The translations under genes and the position numbers were made by a program. A stretch of 64,000 nucleotides of DNA, taken from NCBI RefSeq assembly GCF_048403405.1, contig NZ_CP183129.1; one strand, 5' to 3'. Below the pieces are notes generated by a model. It was not told the DNA's origin, did not search any database, and saw only the letters and a list, made by a program, of their open reading frames with translations. The stretch is from Escherichia coli. GTDB lineage: Bacteria > Pseudomonadota > Gammaproteobacteria > Enterobacterales > Enterobacteriaceae. Below are positions 1-15,342 of the stretch, one piece after another. Each line of letters begins with the position of its first letter. Position 1 is the first letter of the stretch.

Positions 1-2
1 AT

Positions 3-551
3 CCGGTCAGCGATAACGCGGCGCTGACTGGGTTAAGTAAGCTTTTCCGGCACATTCAACCCGCCGTGAACGATCCTCAGGATCTGCGCGCAAAACTGGA
101 AATGCTGTGGGCGTCTTACTATGGCGGCGTAGCGATAACCCATGCGGGCACGCATCTCGTTCATGCGCTCTCCTACCCGTTAGGTGGCAAATATCATCTG
201 CCGCATGGCGTCGCGAATGCCATCTTGCTGGCGCCGTGCATGGCGTTTGTTCGCCCCTGGGCGGTCGAGAAATTTGCCCGGGTCTGGGATTGCATTCCCG
301 ATGCGGAAACCGCCCTGAGCGCGGAAGAAAAATCTCATGCCCTGGTGGCCTGGCTACAGGCATTAGTCAATCAACTCAAGCTACCCAACAATCTCGCGGA
401 TCTCGGCGTACCGCCAGAGGATATTGCCTCTCTTAGCGAGGCGGCACTGAACGTGAAGCGCCTTATGAACAATGCGCCGTGCCAGCTTGATCTACAGGAC
501 GTACAGGCCATTTACCAAACACTGTTTCCGCAACATCAATTTAAGGAATAA
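3..551 (+). CDS. Iron-containing (group III) alcohol dehydrogenase family protein, C-terminal ~182 aa; 5' end lies beyond the left window edge
   Basis: Frame is open from nt 3 with no stop before the track's GTG at 66. Contains HALSYPLGGKYHLPHGVANAILL, the His-rich metal-binding segment typical of Fe-ADHs (FucO/YiaY/EutG-like). Stop lies 3 nt before the next ATG. Confidence 0.8.
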   Translation, partial: PVSDNAALTGLSKLFRHIQPAVNDPQDLRAKLEMLWASYYGGVAITHAGTHLVHALSYPLGGKYHLPHGVANAILLAPCMAFVRPWAVEKFARVWDCIPDAETALSAEEKSHALVAWLQALVNQLKLPNNLADLGVPPEDIASLSEAALNVKRLMNNAPCQLDLQDVQAIYQTLFPQHQFKE

Positions 552-554
552 ATC

Positions 555-1442
555 ATGCCGAAAACCATTGAAGGTGTATTAACCGCCATCGTCACCCCGT
601 TTACCGCGACCGGCAGTCTGAATATCCCGGCGTTAAAAGTGCAGGTGAATCGTCAACTGGAAGCGGGTAACGCGATTTTTTGCGGCGGCACCAACGGCGA
701 GTTTTTTGTGTTGAATGAACAGGAGAAGCTCAGCGTTACGCAAACCTGCGTGGATGAAGTGGCTGGTCGTGCGCCGGTCGTGGCACACATTGGCGAGATC
801 TCGACGCGCGAAACGATTCGTCTGGGTCAGCAGATTGAAAAACTTGGCGTAGATGCTGTGTCGGTCATTACCCCTTACTTCGTACCGCTGAAACAGGAAG
901 AGTTGATTGCGCATTACAGCGCAATTGCCGACGCGCTGAGCATTCCGATGTTTCTCTATAACATCCCGGCCCGCACTGGCAATACGATCCAGCCGGAAAC
1001 CGCGCGTGCTCTGGCGTCGCATCCCAATATCATTGGGATTAAAGACAGCGCCGGAAGCGACGAAAGCCTGAAGGGTTTTCTCGATGCTGTGCGCAACATT
1101 GACGGCTTTAATGTACTCAACGGCCCGGATTCGCTGATCCATAAAGGGTTTGTCGAGGGGTGTTCAGCCTGTATCTCTGGGCTCGCCAACGTCGCACCGC
1201 GGGAAATCAATGCTATCTGGTCTCGCGTCCATGCCGGTGATATTGAAGGGTCTTATGAAGCACAGGAGAGTGTAACGGGCCTGCGTACCGACCTTTATAA
1301 AGTAGCGTTCTCCCCGGCTGCGGTGAAAAAAGCGTTGCAGCTTATGGGGCATGATGTTGGTGATAGCCGCTACGCGGTTAATTTCACGCCTGAACAGATC
1401 AGCGAGATTCAACAAATTATTCGTCATTATAACATTAATTAA
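555..1442 (+). CDS. DapA/NanA-family class I (Schiff-base) pyruvate aldolase/lyase
   Basis: 295 aa. Motifs GGTNGEF, VITPYF, YNIPARTGN and IGIKDSAG (putative Schiff-base Lys) align with the DHDPS/N-acetylneuraminate lyase family. AAGGA RBS precedes the start, which follows the ADH stop closely. Confidence 0.85.
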   Translation: MPKTIEGVLTAIVTPFTATGSLNIPALKVQVNRQLEAGNAIFCGGTNGEFFVLNEQEKLSVTQTCVDEVAGRAPVVAHIGEISTRETIRLGQQIEKLGVDAVSVITPYFVPLKQEELIAHYSAIADALSIPMFLYNIPARTGNTIQPETARALASHPNIIGIKDSAGSDESLKGFLDAVRNIDGFNVLNGPDSLIHKGFVEGCSACISGLANVAPREINAIWSRVHAGDIEGSYEAQESVTGLRTDLYKVAFSPAAVKKALQLMGHDVGDSRYAVNFTPEQISEIQQIIRHYNIN

Positions 1443-1501
1443 ATTAACTCTATTATCCAGCCCGCGATAAAGTTTAGATAAAGAGAATAAAGGATTACTC
1501 C

Positions 1502-2260
1502 ATGTTTTTGTGGTTTATGCAGCCAGATATCTGGCTCACTTTAATTACCCTCACCTTTCTGGAAATTATTCTTGGGGTGGATAATATTATTTTTCTTTCA
1601 CTGGTGGTGGCAAAACTTCCGTTATCACAACAAAATATGGCGCGTAAACTGGGTTTAAGCTGCGCGATGATTATGCGGATATTATTGCTGATATCCATTG
1701 CGTGGCTTTCACATATTACCCAGCCGCTTTTTACCGTGCTGACGCTGGAGATTTCGTTCCGCACGTTGATTCTGCTCGGGGGCGGGCTGTTCCTGATTTA
1801 TAAAGCGATACAGGAGATACGCGAAGAGCTGTCGCCCGCGCAGGAAGACGAACATGGCAGCGGATCGCGGCAACTGTCGTTGTGCGGTGCCATCGTACAG
1901 ATAATGCTGCTCGATATCGTGTTTAGCCTGGATTCGGTGATCACCGCCGTCGGCCTTTCTCAGCATATATTTATCATGATTGCCGCCGTAATGATTGCCG
2001 TCGGTGTCATGATGTTTGCGGCGAAAACAATTGGTGATTTCGTTAACGCCACGCCGTCAATAAAAATACTGGCGTTAACCTTTTTATTATTTGTCGGTGT
2101 ATTGCTGGTTGCCGATAGTCTCAACATTCATATTGCCAAAGAGTATCTCTACTTCGCGATATTTTTCTCATTAAGTGTTGAGACACTCAATATTATCCGT
2201 GAAAGAAGAAATAAAAAAGTTTCGACATTGATCGAAACGCATGAATCGCACTCGCATTAA
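1502..2260 (+). CDS. TerC-family integral membrane protein (YgdQ-like)
   Basis: 252 aa and multi-TM. LEIILGVDNIIFLSLVVAKLP and IVQIMLLDIVFSLDSVITAVG are the duplicated TerC-family signature and closely resemble E. coli YgdQ as I recall it. AAGGA RBS. Confidence 0.8.
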   Translation: MFLWFMQPDIWLTLITLTFLEIILGVDNIIFLSLVVAKLPLSQQNMARKLGLSCAMIMRILLLISIAWLSHITQPLFTVLTLEISFRTLILLGGGLFLIYKAIQEIREELSPAQEDEHGSGSRQLSLCGAIVQIMLLDIVFSLDSVITAVGLSQHIFIMIAAVMIAVGVMMFAAKTIGDFVNATPSIKILALTFLLFVGVLLVADSLNIHIAKEYLYFAIFFSLSVETLNIIRERRNKKVSTLIETHESHSH

Positions 2261-2295
2261 TAAATCTATTACCGACTTTAAGATGGAGTCTAACT

Positions 2296-3465
2296 ATGTC
2301 TGTAGCCCTTATTCGTGACGGCGTCATCCGTCCATCCGAAAACGATTCGCATGTGCTTACCGCCATGCTGCCCTCGTCCTGCCCACAAAACCACGCGGCG
2401 AATATTCTGCCTTTGCCGGATGGCGCGTTAATGTGCGTCTGGTTTGCGGGAACGCAGGAAGGTATTGCCGATATTTCTGTCTGGGGATCGCGATTGCCCG
2501 CTGGCGGGATGCAGTGGAGCGATGCGGTCAAACTTTCCCACGATGACACGCGTTCAGAGCAAAACCCAGTGCTGTTTCTCGCGCCGGATAACGTGCTGTG
2601 GCTGCTATGGACCGCACAAATATCCGGGAATCAGGACACCGCCATCGTCCGCTACCGTAAGTCAGACGACCTCGGACAAACCTGGGGCGAGATTGCCACG
2701 CTGCTCGATAAACCCGGCACGTTCATTCGCCAGCCGATCACGGTGCTTGATAACGGCAACTGGCTGCTGCCCGTCTTTTATTGCCGTACCCAACCCGGTG
2801 AAAAATGGGTCGGCAATGATGATATCAGCGCAGTGAAAATTTCCGCTGACGGTGGTCACTCCTGGCGCGATGTCGTGGTGCCGCAAAGTCTCGGCTGCGT
2901 TCATATGAATATCACAATGCTGCACGACAGTACGTTGGTTGCTCTCTTTCGAAGCCGTTGGGCAGACAACATCTATATCAGCCATTCAGTGGACAACGGC
3001 GAGAGTTGGTCGGTGCCGCAAGCTACCGAATTGCCCAACAACAATTCGTCTATTCAGGTAACGACGCTTGCCAGCGGCGAACTGGCGCTGGTGTACAACG
3101 CGATGAGTGCGGCAGGCGCAGTAGAACGTCGCGCGTCGCTTTATGACGAAATCGACGATGGCGACGACAGCCGCAAAGAACCGACAGCCGTCGGACGCTC
3201 CGCTTTCTGGGGGGCCCCACGCGCGCCGATGACGGTAGCGATTTCTGCCGATGGTGGGAAAAGCTGGCCGTGGCGGCGCAATCTCGATGAAGGCGACGGC
3301 TACTGCATGACCAACAATTCCCTGGAAAAGCTAAATCGTGAGTTCTCCTACCCCAGCATCAAACAAAGCCCGGACGGTACGCTACATATCGCTTACACCT
3401 GGTGGCGTCAGGCCATCAAGTACGTGCGCATCTCCCCCGAGTGGGTTAAGGGGCAGGCATCATGA
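2296..3465 (+). CDS. BNR/Asp-box repeat sialidase-fold protein (exo-alpha-sialidase family), no signal peptide
   Basis: 389 aa. Four Asp-boxes (S-x-D-x-G-x-[ST]-W): SDDLGQTW nt 2662-2685, SADGGHSW 2842-2865, SVDNGESW 2986-3009, SADGGKSW 3244-3267. N-terminal V-I-R-P resembles the sialidase RIP motif. The N-terminus is hydrophilic, with no leader or lipobox. Confidence 0.8.
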   Translation: MSVALIRDGVIRPSENDSHVLTAMLPSSCPQNHAANILPLPDGALMCVWFAGTQEGIADISVWGSRLPAGGMQWSDAVKLSHDDTRSEQNPVLFLAPDNVLWLLWTAQISGNQDTAIVRYRKSDDLGQTWGEIATLLDKPGTFIRQPITVLDNGNWLLPVFYCRTQPGEKWVGNDDISAVKISADGGHSWRDVVVPQSLGCVHMNITMLHDSTLVALFRSRWADNIYISHSVDNGESWSVPQATELPNNNSSIQVTTLASGELALVYNAMSAAGAVERRASLYDEIDDGDDSRKEPTAVGRSAFWGAPRAPMTVAISADGGKSWPWRRNLDEGDGYCMTNNSLEKLNREFSYPSIKQSPDGTLHIAYTWWRQAIKYVRISPEWVKGQAS

Positions 3466-3932
3466 TTATCGGTAATCTCAACCATTTGTCGCTGGCGGGG
3501 CTTCCCGCCTGGGTGAGAAATATTCTGCTGTGCCCGGAGTGTTCGTTATCGGCGTTATCCGCCAGAGAGGACGGTCGCTGGCAACCTGAAGGATGTCGGT
3601 GGTTCTGCACGCTGGGAACTTCAGACACGCAACCCGCCGAACTCCGCCATACGGAGTATCACCATCTGTGGGCCGATATCCAGGTGGTGATTACTGGTTG
3701 TGAGGGCATTAATGCGGGAACGCGGCCCATCGCTCGCGAAAACGATGAAGAACGTAAGCCCGATCTGTTTATCGCCCCATCCCCTGAAAACAGTGTCGCC
3801 ATCACTCTACACCCCGGTGATTTCGCCGTCTTTATGCCTGAGGAACCTCACCAGGCGCTGTGCGCGATTGGCGCGGCTACGTCAGTACGCAAAGCGGTCT
3901 TTAAGGTACCGCGCGACATGCTGGAAGCCTAA
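3462..3932 (+). CDS. YhcH/YjgK/YiaL (DUF386) family protein
   Basis: 156 aa. GDFAVFMPEEPHQA and HTEYHHLWADIQVVI parallel GMFAVFMPGEPHKP and ELHEQYIDIQLLL of E. coli YhcH (recalled). Its ATG overlaps the upstream stop (ATGA), implying translational coupling. Confidence 0.8.
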   Translation: MIIGNLNHLSLAGLPAWVRNILLCPECSLSALSAREDGRWQPEGCRWFCTLGTSDTQPAELRHTEYHHLWADIQVVITGCEGINAGTRPIARENDEERKPDLFIAPSPENSVAITLHPGDFAVFMPEEPHQALCAIGAATSVRKAVFKVPRDMLEA

Positions 3933-3945
3933 AAGGAGAGAAAAA

Positions 3946-5226
3946 ATGACAATGGAAATGATCCTGGCATTAGGAATACTGGTCCTGATGATCGTGCTGA
4001 TCATGTCGGACAAAATGCCATTTGGCGCACCGCCACTGCTTGCGTGTTTATTGCTGGTTGTCTCGGGACTTTCGACCGTTCAACAGGCTTTTGCCGGATT
4101 CGTCAATCCAAGCGTGGTGATGATTGCAGGGTTTATGGTGGTCATGGCAGCGCTACAAAAAACCCGGCTTATCAGCAACGTTAAATCTGCGATGATAAGC
4201 CTGGTCAATAAAGGCAGTTACCGCAGCTACGGGCTGTTGTTAGTCATTGTTATGCTGGGTGCCAGTCTTGCAGGCACCGGCGCGACCGGTTATTACGTGC
4301 TGATTCTGTCGCTGGTATCCACCATTCCGTACAGTAAAAAGCTACCAACATCGAAATTAATGATGCCCCTGGGATTTGCCACCAACCACCCGCTTCTTCC
4401 TATCAATCTCGCGCTTCTCTTTGGCGTTACGGCGACCGTACTCGAAACCGCGGGTTTTCATCAGGAGATTTCGATGGGGCGCTTTGCGCTGGTGAATCTC
4501 ATCATGTCAGCGGCGTTCCTCGCATGGAGTCTTATTGCCTACCGTTTTCTTCCGGATCATCCCATTGCGGATGCTTCCGAGGATGCGCTGGCGGCACGCG
4601 AGGAAACGTTTAACGCCCTTCCTGCCTGGAAAGAATATTGCACTATTGCCGCATTCGCTGTCAGCGTTATCGGCATGATGCTAATGAACATTCTGGGAAA
4701 TATCGCCTTCGTTATTCCGGGTCTTGCGGGTGCGTTTGTTCTGATGATCGATGTACTGGACTTTAAAGAAGTTCGCGATCATATGGGAGCGCCGGTCATT
4801 TTAATGATGGCGGGGGTGATCGGTGTAGCTGATGCACTGGCGGGCACCGGCTTTACGGCGATGGTTGGCGATGCCGTTGCAGGTGTGCTCGGTTCTGGCG
4901 TCTCACCGTTTGTATTTATTGTCGCCTTTGCTTTGCTTACCAGTACCTGCGCCACCTTCACGGGTTCGAATATGGGGTCTGTTTATATTTTTGCCCCCAT
5001 CGCCATTGCCGCCTGTACCAGCCTTGGGCTTAACCCGACCGCTGCAGCGATTGCGGTGGTGATTTCAGGCTGGAACGGCGGCTATATGCCTATTGACGGA
5101 ATGCCAGCCATGATCCTCGGAATGGGGAAATACAAACTTCCCGAATTCTGGGTGTTCTCTGTACCAATGTATCTCATCCGCATTCTGGCGCTTTGTGCAG
5201 GCGCTGTTTTTATCTTCCCAATGTAA
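3946..5226 (+). CDS. Ion-transporter superfamily anion permease (ArsB/NhaD / citrate-transporter-like), 426 aa
   Basis: Highly hydrophobic multi-TM protein. I chose the start at ATG 3946, behind a strong AAAGGAGAG RBS. The track's 3700 start overlaps the YhcH-like gene out of frame and encodes a basic, non-membrane leader. Confidence 0.75.
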   Translation: MTMEMILALGILVLMIVLIMSDKMPFGAPPLLACLLLVVSGLSTVQQAFAGFVNPSVVMIAGFMVVMAALQKTRLISNVKSAMISLVNKGSYRSYGLLLVIVMLGASLAGTGATGYYVLILSLVSTIPYSKKLPTSKLMMPLGFATNHPLLPINLALLFGVTATVLETAGFHQEISMGRFALVNLIMSAAFLAWSLIAYRFLPDHPIADASEDALAAREETFNALPAWKEYCTIAAFAVSVIGMMLMNILGNIAFVIPGLAGAFVLMIDVLDFKEVRDHMGAPVILMMAGVIGVADALAGTGFTAMVGDAVAGVLGSGVSPFVFIVAFALLTSTCATFTGSNMGSVYIFAPIAIAACTSLGLNPTAAAIAVVISGWNGGYMPIDGMPAMILGMGKYKLPEFWVFSVPMYLIRILALCAGAVFIFPM

Positions 5227-5240
5227 TCTCAGACAAAAAA

Positions 5241-5269
5241 AGCGGCAGAGAAGATCCCTGCCGCTTTTT
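5241..5269. terminator. Bidirectional rho-independent terminator between the accessory operon and nagE
   Basis: Hairpin AGCGGCAG-N9-CTGCCGCT, flanked by an A-run upstream and a T-run downstream. Confidence 0.75.
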
Positions 5270-5275
5270 ATTGTT

Positions 5276-5303
5276 GGATGCGACGCTGCCGTGTCGCATC
5301 AGG
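5276..5303. repeat. REP-like palindromic unit
   Basis: GGATGCGACGCTGCCGTGTCGCATCAGG. It has the inverted repeat GATGCGAC/GTCGCATC and resembles E. coli REP consensus variants. Confidence 0.6.
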
Positions 5304-5314
5304 TATAAAGCAGA

Positions 5315-14757: not shown

Positions 14758-15342
14758 ATGAATTATCAGCTATTCTCACCATTCTTTACCAAAGTCATCA
14801 TGCTGCTTATCGCATTGCTTTGCATTGTTCTTGCCTCATTTGGTATTTCTGCCCCATTTTGTTACATCGTTTTTATCGGCATCATTTTCCCCGTTGCTAT
14901 ATCAATGCGCATACACCGTCTCAATGAAACAGGAACAGCACTCACACTAACCGAAAGCTCACACTGGATCGTTTACATCCATGGTTTTCCAGCTGAGGAA
15001 CAACGTGAAGTTTTGAAAAACCCCTGTTTCTGGTCAACAGAAAGAGTGAAACAGTTTTTCCTTCGCGGTCTTGCTGGCAAGGTTATTCTTCAACTCGCCT
15101 GCCTTGCACTTCTGGTCAATGAATATTTCCGCTCAACACCAGGTTCCGGGCAAGACTTACTCGCAGCAGGCGTGCTGTTTTTTATTTTGTTTTCGATAAG
15201 CAAAAATTTCTGGACGATGTATCTTCTCGCCACAGATAAATGGCAGTGCGAATCCCTGACCACCACCAGCGGTAGCCTTTGGTATCAGGGATTTCTGTGT
15301 AAAGGAAACAGAAGAGTTACGCTGTTTTCGCGGCTGGTGTAA
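14758..15342 (+). CDS. Hypothetical four-TM membrane protein (194 aa); no family recognised
   Basis: AAGGA RBS 7 nt upstream of the ATG. Two N-terminal and two central hydrophobic helices, with a ~50-aa soluble loop and a Cys/Trp-containing C-terminal tail. AT-richer than its neighbours. Ends 6 nt from the convergent ubiF stop. Confidence 0.55.
   Translation: MNYQLFSPFFTKVIMLLIALLCIVLASFGISAPFCYIVFIGIIFPVAISMRIHRLNETGTALTLTESSHWIVYIHGFPAEEQREVLKNPCFWSTERVKQFFLRGLAGKVILQLACLALLVNEYFRSTPGSGQDLLAAGVLFFILFSISKNFWTMYLLATDKWQCESLTTTSGSLWYQGFLCKGNRRVTLFSRLV

What the first reader, a model, noticed from the sequence alone, without database searches (positions are those of the whole stretch)
1..5270. 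Accessory six-gene operon beside nagE: Fe-ADH, NanA-like aldolase, TerC, leaderless sialidase-fold protein, YhcH-like protein and IT-family permease
All six genes are co-directional with minimal spacers: 3 nt, 59 nt, 35 nt, an ATGA overlap and 13 nt. The operon ends in one bidirectional terminator. In K-12, as I recall, nagE is followed directly by glnS, so this block is accessory. The combination parallels the logic of sialic-acid catabolism: glycoside cleavage (sialidase fold), anomer or ring handling (YhcH-like), C-C cleavage to pyruvate (NanA-like), and disposal of the aldehyde product (ADH). However, no component is the canonical nan gene, and the usual kinase, epimerase and NanR genes are absent from the visible part. 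I infer an uncharacterised pathway for a nonulosonic or 2-keto-3-deoxy sugar acid glycoside that is imported intact and cleaved in the cytoplasm. The promoter, any regulator and further genes lie left of the window.
Basis: partly seen in the sequence, partly recalled or inferred. Interest (0 to 1): 0.8.

Follow-up and report, generated by a model that had tools for sequence, protein, structure and literature searches.

The report
Accessory island for acid-sugar catabolism
The six genes are the visible arm of a nine-gene accessory island, present in about a fifth of E. coli genomes and in many plant-associated bacteria, that probably imports a rare seven-carbon pectin acid sugar and converts it to pyruvate and a glycolytic intermediate; none of this has been tested experimentally.

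Summary
Six co-directional genes lie at 1-5226: Fe-ADH (3' part), DHDPS-family aldolase, TerC, leaderless BNR_2 sialidase-fold protein, YhcH/DUF386 and SLC13/CitMHS permease. The spacers are as stated and a strong bidirectional terminator precedes nagE.

Leftward, in identical genomes, the ADH is the first gene. A divergent arm encodes a D-threonate kinase (DtnK), a D-threonate-4-phosphate dehydrogenase (PdxA2) and a DeoR regulator. The nine-gene island sits between glnS and nagE in 1047 of 5426 complete E. coli genomes, all-or-none.

The sialidase-fold gene keeps the same partners (aldolase, ADH, DtnK, PdxA2) in Proteobacteria, Firmicutes and Actinobacteria, mostly plant or soil taxa. A palindromic operator is shared by both arms.

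Best reading (inference, untested): a seven-carbon 2-keto-3-deoxy dicarboxylic sugar, most likely Dha from pectin rhamnogalacturonan-II, is cleaved to pyruvate and D-threuronate. This is reduced to D-threonate, phosphorylated, and decarboxylated to DHAP.

The nonulosonic (C9) reading and "ADH as disposal" do not. The reaction of the sialidase-fold protein is unknown. The cluster is recorded as uncharacterised in the literature I could search.

The parts
1..551 (+). 3' 60% of an iron-containing alcohol dehydrogenase gene. It is the first gene of the operon; its first 607 nt lie left of the window. Proposed role: D-threuronate (4-oxo-2,3-dihydroxybutanoate) reductase making D-threonate.
   Evidence: Pfam ADH_Fe_C 123 bits. 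The full gene is 1158 nt in 100%-identical genome L002. It is below every NCBIfam equivalog cut-off. It lies next to the DHDPS gene in nearly all related loci. The proposed role is inference.
555..1442 (+). DHDPS/NAL-superfamily class I (Schiff-base) pyruvate aldolase. Proposed role: cleavage of a C7 2-keto-3-deoxy-aldaric acid to pyruvate plus a C4 aldehyde-acid.
   Evidence: Pfam DHDPS 209 bits. It scores 191 bits against dapA (cut-off 206) and 114-148 against nanA models, so it passes neither. Lys163 and Tyr135 are conserved. Arg140 aligns with DapA Arg138; it is R or K in all 46 cluster orthologues and Leu in NanA.
1502..2260 (+). TerC-family inner-membrane protein, a paralogue of enterobacterial YgdQ. 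Role unknown. It occupies the slot held by an SSS-family symporter in most other versions of the cluster.
   Evidence: Pfam TerC 157 bits. It is 62-64% identical to YgdQ-type TerC proteins. GC is 0.444 against 0.50-0.57 for its neighbours. It is present only in the E. coli/Klebsiella/Salmonella salamae variant, and independently in Marinobacterium L047.
2296..3465 (+). Leaderless six-bladed beta-propeller protein of sialidase (GH33-like) fold. It is the signature gene of the cluster. Reaction unknown; proposed to process a ketoside or other ring form of the acid sugar.
3462..3932 (+). YhcH/YjgK/YiaL (DUF386) protein, translationally coupled to the sialidase-fold gene by an ATGA overlap. Proposed role: anomerase or ring-opening helper, as for NanQ.
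   Evidence: Pfam DUF386 93 bits. It passes the TIGR00022 subfamily cut-off (97 > 45.5) but not the NanQ equivalog (91.5 < 160). It is present in 23 of 80 loci and absent from Bacillus salacetis L089, so it is dispensable.
3946..5226 (+). SLC13/CitMHS-type (ion-transporter superfamily) permease. Proposed importer of the di- or tricarboxylate substrate.
   Evidence: Pfam CitMHS 87 bits and Na_sulph_symp 48 bits. It is below the DASS TIGR00785 cut-off. Orthologues 76-78% identical sit in the same cluster in Firmicutes, where the enzymes are only 25-45% identical.
5234..5269 (.). Bidirectional intrinsic terminator shared by the operon and the convergent nagE gene.
   Evidence: The sequence was read directly. 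The fold is -22 kcal/mol, z -6.57, and 0 of 200 shuffles fold as well.

Best explanation
The six genes are one arm of a nine-gene accessory catabolic island, a single DeoR-controlled regulon.

Proposed pathway (inference throughout, except steps 5 and 6):
1. [quoted passage not shown]
2. The cytoplasmic sialidase-fold protein and the YhcH-like protein convert it to the free, open-chain form.
3. The DapA-like aldolase splits C3-C4 to give pyruvate and D-threuronate.
4. The Fe-ADH reduces the aldehyde to D-threonate.
5. DtnK phosphorylates D-threonate.
6. PdxA2 oxidatively decarboxylates the product to DHAP and CO2.

The net conversion is Dha to pyruvate + DHAP + CO2. It is redox-neutral and costs one ATP.

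What is shown: the gene content, the conservation of the gene set, the shared operator, and the family and equivalog assignments. Steps 5 and 6 are biochemistry established elsewhere. Steps 1 to 4 and the identity of the substrate are inferred.

Layered confidence:
- One regulon that feeds an aldolase product into the D-threonate branch: about 0.7.
- Substrate is Dha or a Dha glycoside: about 0.4.
For: (a) Island structure. DeoR, PdxA2 and DtnK lie divergent from ADH-DHDPS-TerC-BNR-YhcH-SLC13 between glnS and nagE.

(b) Lower pathway.
- DtnK scores 532 bits against a cut-off of 450.
- PdxA2 scores 681 bits against a cut-off of 583. Both are NCBIfam equivalog models for the D-threonate enzymes.
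- PdxA2 is about 82% identical to PDB 6E85, 'D-threonate 4-phosphate dehydrogenase'.
- These two activities are sufficient to convert D-threonate to DHAP in E. coli (PMC10079672).

(c) Conserved partnership. Among 80 loci found with the sialidase-fold protein:
- 63 carry PdxA2. DtnK was detected as its own ORF in 44; in another 20 the PdxA2 ORF is long enough to be a DtnK-PdxA2 fusion.
- 54 carry DHDPS and 54 carry the ADH.
- The loci span Gamma-, Beta- and Alphaproteobacteria, Bacilli, Negativicutes and Actinobacteria.
- In Paenibacillus and Priestia the order is DHDPS-ADH-DtnK-PdxA2-transporter-BNR, the order of the proposed steps.
- The minimal versions in Bacillus salacetis and Anaeromicropila are permease + BNR + DHDPS + ADH + DtnK + PdxA2.

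(d) One regulon. The palindrome TGATT-N6-AATCA occurs next to each divergent start. It is kept in the gammaproteobacterial loci that have the divergent DeoR arm. It also lies upstream of the transporter-BNR module in Pantoea loci that lack the lower module nearby.

(e) C7 diacid logic.
- Pyruvate (C3) plus a C4 acid gives C7.
- The aldolase is closest to DapA. It keeps a basic residue at DapA Arg138 in 46 of 46 orthologues. From memory of the DHDPS literature, that Arg binds the carboxylate of the C4 aldehyde-acid aspartate semialdehyde.

(f) Stereochemistry, my derivation. In D-lyxo Dha, C5 and C6 become C3 and C2 of the C4 product, which is D-threo. This matches the D-threonate specificity of the lower enzymes.

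(g) Transporters in the cluster include SLC13/CitMHS, TctABC and a D-galactonate/ACS-type MFS, which are types that carry di- and tricarboxylates or acid sugars.

(h) Hosts are overwhelmingly plant or soil bacteria: Pectobacterium, Erwinia, Pantoea, Bradyrhizobium, Burkholderia, plant-pathogenic Pseudomonas, Paenibacillus, Gilliamella.

Against: - There is no experiment of any kind on the six-gene arm.
- The reaction of the core sialidase-fold protein is not explained by a free-Dha pathway. If it cleaves a ketoside, the aglycone is unknown and is never encoded in the cluster.
- Its active site departs from GH33: no acidic residue at the Glu position, and NHA where RIP is expected.
- The commonest transporter in the cluster (40 of 80 loci) is an SSS-family symporter. 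That family usually carries monocarboxylates or neutral solutes.
- A conserved SDR (51 of 80 loci) has no assigned step. It is absent from E. coli.
- Dha is a very minor sugar, one residue per RG-II. This makes a dedicated, widespread eight-gene cluster somewhat surprising.
- E. coli DtnK is only 40% identical to the characterised Salmonella enzyme (PMC12928451). Its specificity therefore rests on an HMM cut-off.
- The role of DapA Arg138 and the Dha stereochemistry argument are my own reasoning, not tool results.
Confidence: 0.42

Rival explanations
1. There are two unrelated functions side by side. The left arm is a stand-alone D-threonate utilisation unit, as in Salmonella. The six-gene operon degrades some other 2-keto-3-deoxy sugar acid, and its ADH merely detoxifies or reduces the aldehyde product.
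For: The two arms are separate transcription units in Enterobacterales. Ten of 80 loci have the sialidase-fold gene without DHDPS, ADH, DtnK, PdxA2 or DeoR within 10 kb; six of these keep the transporter and SDR. By my recollection of Zhang et al. 2016, DtnK/PdxA2 function alone with a transporter in Salmonella.
Against: In Firmicutes and Negativicutes all the genes form one co-directional run. In other taxa DtnK and PdxA2 are interleaved with DHDPS, ADH and BNR. The same operator palindrome flanks both arms and also the detached upper module in Pantoea. No D-threonate transporter separate from the cluster permease is present in the minimal clusters.
Confidence: 0.2
2. The substrate is another compound that yields a C4 sugar or acid. 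One example is a C7 mono-acid (3-deoxy-heptulosonate such as DAH) cleaved to pyruvate plus a tetrose, which is then oxidised. Another is a still unknown plant or microbial acid sugar.
For: The widespread SDR (51 of 80 loci) could be a tetrose or lactol dehydrogenase. The SSS-family transporter fits a monocarboxylate. The kinases in distant clusters are far from E. coli DtnK, 45-180 bits, so their specificity could differ.
Against: The E. coli, Klebsiella, Anaeromicropila and Bacillus salacetis versions lack the SDR yet keep everything else. A tetrose route leaves the universally conserved Fe-ADH without a role. The basic residue at the DapA Arg138 position argues for an acidic aldehyde partner. 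DAH would give the erythro, not the threo, product.
Confidence: 0.15
3. One reading: a pathway for a sialic, nonulosonic (C9) or Kdo (C8) glycoside, imported intact, cleaved by a cytoplasmic sialidase, then split by a NanA-like lyase.
For: The fold is GH33-like, with closest structures bacterial sialidases, cytosolic Neu2 and a KDNase. A YhcH homologue and a NAL-superfamily aldolase are present. Kdo released from RG-II by Bacteroides has no confirmed consumer pathway in gut microbes (bioRxiv 10.64898/2026.03.13.711244).
Against: C9 or C8 substrates give ManNAc, mannose or D-arabinose. No kinase, epimerase or pentose enzyme is present, and DtnK/PdxA2 would be unexplained. NanA and NanQ equivalog cut-offs are missed. 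The aldolase is DapA-like at the aldehyde-binding Arg. The sialidase Tyr-Glu pair is incomplete. The host range is plant and soil, not mucosal.
Confidence: 0.1
4. The cluster serves recycling of the toxic antimetabolite 4-hydroxy-L-threonine or pyridoxal-phosphate salvage, as proposed for DUF1537/PdxA2 pairs.
For: PMC12928451 discusses the pair in this island in those terms, citing Thiaville et al. 2016. PdxA2 also passes the TIGR00557 pdxA cut-off.
Against: [quoted passage not shown] The PLP reading does not explain a permease, an aldolase, an ADH and a sialidase-fold protein in one regulon. E. coli has its own pdxA.
Confidence: 0.03

Closest known systems
D-threonate catabolic pathway, DtnK + PdxA2 (Zhang et al. 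2016 PNAS, cited; used functionally in PMC10079672)
   Same: The left arm of the island encodes both enzymes above the NCBIfam equivalog cut-offs, plus a DeoR regulator. The end products would be DHAP and CO2.
   Different: Here the pair is embedded in a larger conserved cluster with an aldolase, an Fe-ADH, a sialidase-fold protein and a permease. D-threonate would be an internal intermediate and not the imported nutrient. That upstream part is not described in the literature I could search.
Sialic acid (nan) catabolism: sialidase, NanQ (YhcH) anomerase, NanA lyase, NanT/SiaT transporters
   Same: It has the same protein folds and the same logic for the upper half: a ring-form 2-keto-3-deoxy acid, ring opening, then a Schiff-base pyruvate lyase. 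The transporter repertoire is partly parallel (SSS, and ABC with a family-5 binding protein).
   Different: No gene reaches the nan equivalog thresholds. There is no NanK, NanE or NanR. The aldehyde product is reduced and sent through a C4 acid-sugar branch. The sialidase-fold protein is cytoplasmic and has no acidic residue at the Glu position. The hosts are plant or soil bacteria.
BT_1020 of the Bacteroides thetaiotaomicron RG-II locus (PDB 5mqs; by my recollection its N-terminal part is the GH143 Dha-hydrolase of Ndeh et al. 2017)
Dihydrodipicolinate synthase DapA
   Same: It is the closest family by HMM score (191 bits). The Schiff-base Lys, the catalytic Tyr and the Arg138-equivalent are conserved. 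DapA joins pyruvate to a C4 aldehyde-acid to make a C7 dicarboxylate, which is the reverse of the proposed Dha cleavage.
   Different: The protein is below the dapA equivalog cut-off (191 < 206). GTTGE is replaced by GTNGE. Its genomic context is catabolic, and these genomes carry a separate dapA.
Kdo hydrolase KdoH1/KdoH2 of Francisella and Helicobacter (recalled from memory; a lead only)
   Same: It pairs a leaderless sialidase-like protein acting on a 2-keto-3-deoxy acid with a small membrane protein.
   Different: It remodels LPS and is not catabolic. TerC is unrelated to KdoH1 and is absent from most versions of this cluster. No comparison was run.

Membership tests
GH33 exo-alpha-sialidase | Six-bladed beta-propeller catalytic domain with Asp-box (BNR) repeats | tested here: met
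GH33 exo-alpha-sialidase | Nucleophilic Tyr paired with a conserved Glu | tested here: not met
   Tyr352 (SYPS) aligns with the sialidase Tyr. The family has H or Q there and never D or E.
GH33 exo-alpha-sialidase | Arginine triad, including the Arg of the N-terminal (F/Y)RIP motif | tested here: inconclusive
   R219 and R309 align with the second and third Arg. No alignment covers the N-terminal motif. By eye the invariant NHAAN (His33) stands where RIP is expected.
GH33 exo-alpha-sialidase | Hydrolysis of sialic acid ketosides | not testable with these tools
   This needs an enzyme assay.
nan sialic-acid catabolic system | N-acetylneuraminate lyase NanA | tested here: not met
   TIGR00683 114 bits (cut-off 382). 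NF003164 148 bits (cut-off 281).
nan sialic-acid catabolic system | NanK kinase, NanE epimerase, NanR regulator | tested here: not met
   None is among the nine island genes. The regulator is of the DeoR family.
nan sialic-acid catabolic system | NanQ (YhcH) N-acetylneuraminate anomerase | tested here: not met
   NF040884 91.5 bits (cut-off 160). Only the broad TIGR00022 subfamily is passed.
D-threonate catabolic pathway (DtnK/PdxA2) | DUF1537 kinase matching the D-threonate kinase equivalog model | tested here: met
   NF047819 532.5 bits (cut-off 450). The gene lies left of the window (L002 9989-11224).
D-threonate catabolic pathway (DtnK/PdxA2) | PdxA-family dehydrogenase matching the D-threonate 4-phosphate dehydrogenase equivalog | tested here: met
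   NF002891 681 bits (cut-off 583). About 82% identical to PDB 6E85 of that name.
D-threonate catabolic pathway (DtnK/PdxA2) | Measured kinase and dehydrogenase activity on D-threonate and its 4-phosphate | not testable with these tools
   Activity is established for homologues only (PMC10079672; Zhang et al. 2016 as cited).
DHDPS/NAL class I aldolase superfamily | Pfam DHDPS domain with Schiff-base Lys and catalytic Tyr | tested here: met
   PF00701 209 bits. K163 and Y135 are invariant in alignment A3, which includes the real K-12 DapA.
DapA (4-hydroxy-tetrahydrodipicolinate synthase) | Score above the dapA equivalog cut-off | tested here: not met
   TIGR00674 191.1 bits against a cut-off of 206.15.
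DASS / SLC13 divalent anion:sodium symporters | Match to the DASS family model | tested here: inconclusive
   TIGR00785 56.7 bits, below the 198.6 cut-off. Pfam Na_sulph_symp (48 > 27) and CitMHS (87 > 31.9) are both passed. No PDB sequence relative was found.
TerC family | Pfam TerC domain | tested here: met
   PF03741 157 bits. 62-64% identical to YgdQ-type proteins. Below the YkoY and YjbE subfamily cut-offs.

The most novel reading that the evidence does not exclude
This is the first catabolic pathway for Dha, the rhamnogalacturonan-II-specific seven-carbon diacid sugar.
- It would give D-threonate and the DtnK/PdxA2 enzymes their missing physiological source.
- It would use a cytoplasmic GH33-fold enzyme with a rewired active site (His in place of the Glu, and possibly of the first Arg) for a reaction not yet known in that fold.
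- It would let B2/ExPEC E. coli and Klebsiella cross-feed on pectin fragments released by gut Bacteroides.
- Its dedicated permease would have been swapped between Firmicutes and Enterobacterales by horizontal transfer.
Probability: 0.35. Interest if true: 0.75.

Novelty: new variant of a known kind. Interest (0 to 1): 0.55.

Why it matters
- No route for Dha breakdown appears in the literature I could search. A 2026 preprint states that pathways for several RG-II-derived sugars in gut microbes are unconfirmed.
- If the proposal is right, it closes one of the last gaps in pectin monosaccharide catabolism.
- It would also explain why a dedicated D-threonate branch exists in nature.
- It would assign a function to a conserved cluster found in several bacterial phyla.
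- It would give a concrete, testable metabolic trait to a genomic region (GR6, nagE..glnS) shared by all the ExPEC and AIEC strains compared in PMC12928451 and absent from K-12.
- The sialidase-fold protein, with its altered catalytic residues, is a candidate for new chemistry in a well-studied fold.
- If the proposal is wrong, the cluster is still a well-delimited orphan pathway with a known lower half.

Tried and rejected
- A single-sequence AF2 run on the sialidase-fold protein failed (pLDDT 37). It was repeated with a 27-sequence alignment.
It was repeated with 12 sequences.
- Two key papers are not held and could not be read: Thiaville et al. 2016 and Zhang et al. 2016.
- A PDB sequence search with the single sialidase-fold protein gave nothing useful.
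- The SSS transporter is not close to any solved sialic-acid symporter. The SLC13 permease has no PDB relative. Neither narrows the substrate.
- NCBIfam gives no specific assignment for the conserved SDR.
- The sigma-70 scan found no promoter in the divergent intergenic region.
- Neighbour genes beyond the core set gave no second glycosidase or aglycone pathway. The one exception is a GH78 rhamnosidase on the opposite strand in Bacillus swezeyi, which I treat as probably coincidental.
- Kdo, sialic acids, KDN and hexarates were rejected as substrates. Their aldolase products (C5, C6 or C3) cannot enter a D-threonate branch with the enzymes present.
- A lactonase role for the propeller paired with the SDR was rejected. 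E. coli, Klebsiella and two Firmicutes keep the propeller without the SDR.

Full report
**Observation**

The window opens inside an iron-containing alcohol dehydrogenase gene, which ends at 551. Five further genes follow on the same strand:
- a DHDPS-family gene (555-1442);
- TerC (1502-2260);
- a BNR_2 sialidase-family gene (2296-3465);
- a YhcH/DUF386 gene (3462-3932);
- a CitMHS/SLC13-type permease (3946-5226).

All six have strong Pfam matches. At 5234-5269 a GC stem flanked by an A-run and a U-run folds at -22 kcal/mol (z = -6.6) and faces the convergent nagE gene. The sialidase-family protein has no signal peptide.

**Extension to the left**

The region is 100% identical to several human E. 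coli isolates and 98.5-98.9% identical to E2348/69 and 536. In these genomes the ADH is the first gene of the operon. A 169-bp intergenic region separates it from a divergent arm encoding a DUF1537 kinase, a PdxA-family dehydrogenase and a DeoR regulator. The nine genes lie between glnS and nagE, with no mobility genes.

The island is all-or-none. It is complete in 1047 of 5426 complete genomes. In the rest only 74-82 nt of flank remains, including K-12 derivatives. A 2026 genome paper lists it as region GR6 (nagE..glnS). That paper found it in all seven comparison strains (six ExPEC and the AIEC strain LF82) and classed its genes as uncharacterised (PMC12928451).

**What the unseen genes are**

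- The kinase passes the NCBIfam equivalog model for D-threonate kinase (532 bits, cut-off 450).
- The dehydrogenase passes the model for D-threonate 4-phosphate dehydrogenase (681 bits, cut-off 583). It is about 82% identical to PDB 6E85, which carries that name.
[quoted passage not shown] Together with a D-threonate permease they allow laboratory E. coli to grow on D-threonate (PMC10079672).

By contrast, none of the six operon genes reaches a specific equivalog. The aldolase misses both dapA (191 against 206) and nanA. The YhcH protein misses NanQ. The ADH misses all named reductases. The sialidase-family protein matches no NCBIfam model.

**Is the gene set a unit?**

I scanned one genome per species with an alignment of the sialidase-family protein and kept 80 loci. 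Searching their six-frame ORFs with the nine E. coli proteins gave these counts:
- PdxA2 in 63 loci. DtnK was detected as its own ORF in 44. In another 20 the PdxA2 ORF is 1.7-3.4 kb long, enough for a DtnK-PdxA2 fusion.
- The DHDPS gene in 54, and the ADH in 54.
- DeoR in 47.

The loci come from Enterobacterales, Pasteurellaceae, Burkholderiales, Rhizobiales, Pseudomonas, Bacillus, Paenibacillus, Veillonellaceae and actinomycetes. Most are plant or soil organisms: Pectobacterium, Erwinia, Pantoea, Rahnella, Bradyrhizobium, Burkholderia, Pseudomonas cichorii and P. capsici, and the bee-gut pectin degrader Gilliamella.

In Paenibacillus and Priestia everything is one run: DHDPS-ADH-DtnK-PdxA2-transporter-BNR-(YhcH)-SDR.

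In the E. coli intergenic region a palindrome, TGATTGAATTCAATCA, and a near copy sit next to the two divergent starts. TGATT-N6-AATCA is found at the same place in the gammaproteobacterial loci that have the divergent DeoR arm. It also lies upstream of the transporter-BNR module in two Pantoea genomes where the lower genes are elsewhere. I take this as good evidence for one regulon.

**Variants**

Most versions carry two genes that E. coli lacks:
- an SSS-family symporter just before the sialidase-family gene (40 loci);
- a short-chain dehydrogenase just after it (51 loci).

E. coli, the Klebsiella oxytoca group and Salmonella enterica subsp. salamae instead have TerC and the SLC13 permease in those two slots. 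Yersinia has the SSS/SDR form.

The SLC13 permease is 76-78% identical to permeases of Anaeromicropila herbilytica and Bacillus salacetis. Those permeases sit in the same kind of cluster, although the enzymes there are only 25-45% identical to the E. coli ones. Two conclusions follow:
- The permease is dedicated to this pathway and has moved between phyla.
- The B. salacetis cluster defines a minimal system: permease, sialidase-fold protein, aldolase, ADH, DtnK and PdxA2. The SDR, TerC and YhcH are therefore accessories.

TerC is a low-GC (0.44) paralogue of the housekeeping YgdQ protein. I cannot assign it a role.

**The sialidase-fold protein**

With a 27-sequence alignment AlphaFold gives a confident six-bladed propeller (pLDDT 94.4). 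The closest solved structures are all GH33-type:

A family profile aligns R219, R309 and Y352 with two of the three sialidase arginines and the nucleophilic tyrosine. The glutamate that partners the tyrosine is replaced by His203, or by Cys201 in a second alignment. No acidic residue is conserved there. The N-terminal RIP motif appears to be NHA, but no alignment covers it.

The protein therefore has the fold and part of the carboxylate-binding site of a sialidase, but fails one defining catalytic feature. I do not file it as a sialidase, and its reaction is open.

**Mechanism proposed (inference)**

- A Schiff-base pyruvate aldolase yields pyruvate plus an aldehyde.
- The only downstream enzymes are an aldehyde/alcohol oxidoreductase and a two-step route that takes the C4 acid D-threonate to DHAP.
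- The simplest substrate is therefore a C7 2-keto-3-deoxy dicarboxylic acid. Its aldehyde product is D-threuronate, and reduction of that gives D-threonate.
- Working through the Fischer projections, C5 and C6 of D-lyxo Dha become C3 and C2 of a D-threo acid. This matches the specificity of the lower enzymes.

Three independent observations fit:
- (i) The aldolase is most like DapA, which joins pyruvate to a C4 aldehyde-acid. It keeps Arg or Lys at the position of DapA Arg138 in all 46 orthologues, where NanA has Leu. This was checked against the real K-12 DapA. The carboxylate-binding role of Arg138 is from my memory of the DHDPS literature.
- (ii) The transporters recruited to the cluster include SLC13/CitMHS, TctABC and an acid-sugar MFS.
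- (iii) The hosts live on plant material.

The pathway would be redox-neutral and would yield pyruvate, DHAP and CO2.

**Weak points**

- The core sialidase-fold protein has no necessary job if free Dha is imported.
- It may cleave a small Dha ketoside, for example Dha linked to galacturonate, or may open another ring form. No aglycone pathway is ever in the cluster.
- The commonest transporter is of the SSS type, and the common SDR is unexplained.
- Dha is scarce.
- The E. coli kinase is only 40% identical to the characterised Salmonella enzyme.

I put about 0.7 on 'one regulon that feeds an aldolase product into the D-threonate branch' and about 0.4 on Dha.

**Rivals**

- Two unrelated adjacent modules, 0.2. 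This is weakened by the single operons in Firmicutes and by the shared operator.
- Another C4-yielding substrate, such as a heptulosonate, 0.15. This is weakened by the SDR-less variants and by the conserved ADH.
Its products could not use DtnK/PdxA2.
- 4-hydroxythreonine or vitamin B6 salvage, 0.03.

**Known or new**

- The lower half is a known pathway.
- The cluster as a whole has been noticed but not explained (PMC12928451, citing Thiaville et al. 2016, which I could not read).
- Full-text searches for heptulosaric acid together with catabolism, aldolase or threonate, and for DtnK, found no description of a Dha pathway or of an upstream source of D-threonate.
- I rate it a new variant of a known kind, an acid-sugar catabolic cluster built from known families, with a specific and cheap experimental test.

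Noticed in passing
L002 11254-11269 and 11360-11375 (left of the window, 100%-identical genome): Two copies of a 16-nt palindrome, TGATTATATTCAATCA and TGATTGAATTCAATCA, each next to one of the divergent start codons. This is a likely DeoR operator. TGATT-N6-AATCA is conserved at the same place in 24 related gammaproteobacterial loci.
   Followed up: partly
window 3946-5226; loci L088 and L089: The SLC13 permease is 76-78% identical to permeases in homologous clusters of Lachnospiraceae and Bacillus. The neighbouring enzymes are only 25-45% identical. The transporter gene alone appears to have moved between phyla.
   Followed up: partly
window 1502-2260: The TerC gene has GC 0.444 against 0.50-0.57 for the rest of the island. 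It is a 62-64% identical paralogue of the housekeeping YgdQ. A TerC gene also sits inside the unrelated Marinobacterium version of the cluster (L047 12647-13339). Its function in the pathway is unexplained.
   Followed up: partly
window 3700-3945: An in-frame GTG at 3700 extends the permease ORF to 508 aa over the yhcH gene. Some records annotate this long form (APEC O1, protein P0271). The 426-aa form starting at 3946 is the RefSeq call and matches the homologues.
   Followed up: partly
window 5278-5304: An imperfect palindrome, GATGCGACGCTGCCGTGTCGCATCAGG, lies between the terminator and the nagE stop codon. It looks like a REP element. It may explain why 1537 genomes gave short matches in the first megablast.
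   Followed up: no
window 14758-15342: A 194-aa annotated hypothetical protein with no Pfam match lies between the tRNA cluster and ubiF. It is absent from E2348/69. This strain also has seven tRNA genes there (a fourth tRNA-Gln) against six in E2348/69.
   Followed up: partly
L040, L042, L044-L046, L051, L052, L054, L055, L059, L064, L065, L069, L071, L074, L080, L081: In Burkholderia-group and actinomycete loci the PdxA2 match lies in a 2.3-3.4 kb ORF. This is consistent with DtnK-PdxA2 fusion proteins. In high-GC DNA, long stop-free ORFs could also produce it.
   Followed up: no
L005 9983-11170; L090 8319-9517: The sialidase-fold gene is split into two ORFs in Atlantibacter subterraneus. 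No gene is called in the corresponding gap in Salmonella enterica subsp. salamae. These may be pseudogenes, suggesting the pathway is decaying in some lineages.
   Followed up: no
L027 11353-13053 (Bacillus swezeyi): A GH78 alpha-L-rhamnosidase and an AraC regulator lie next to a detached transporter-BNR-SDR module. Rhamnose caps the Kdo side chain of RG-II, so this could hint at a Kdo-related use of the upper module. It could also be coincidence.
   Followed up: no
L083 and L090: In Klebsiella michiganensis and Salmonella salamae the same nine-gene unit (TerC/SLC13 variant) sits near marRAB and not between glnS and nagE. The whole unit has therefore been inserted at different chromosomal sites.
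   Followed up: no
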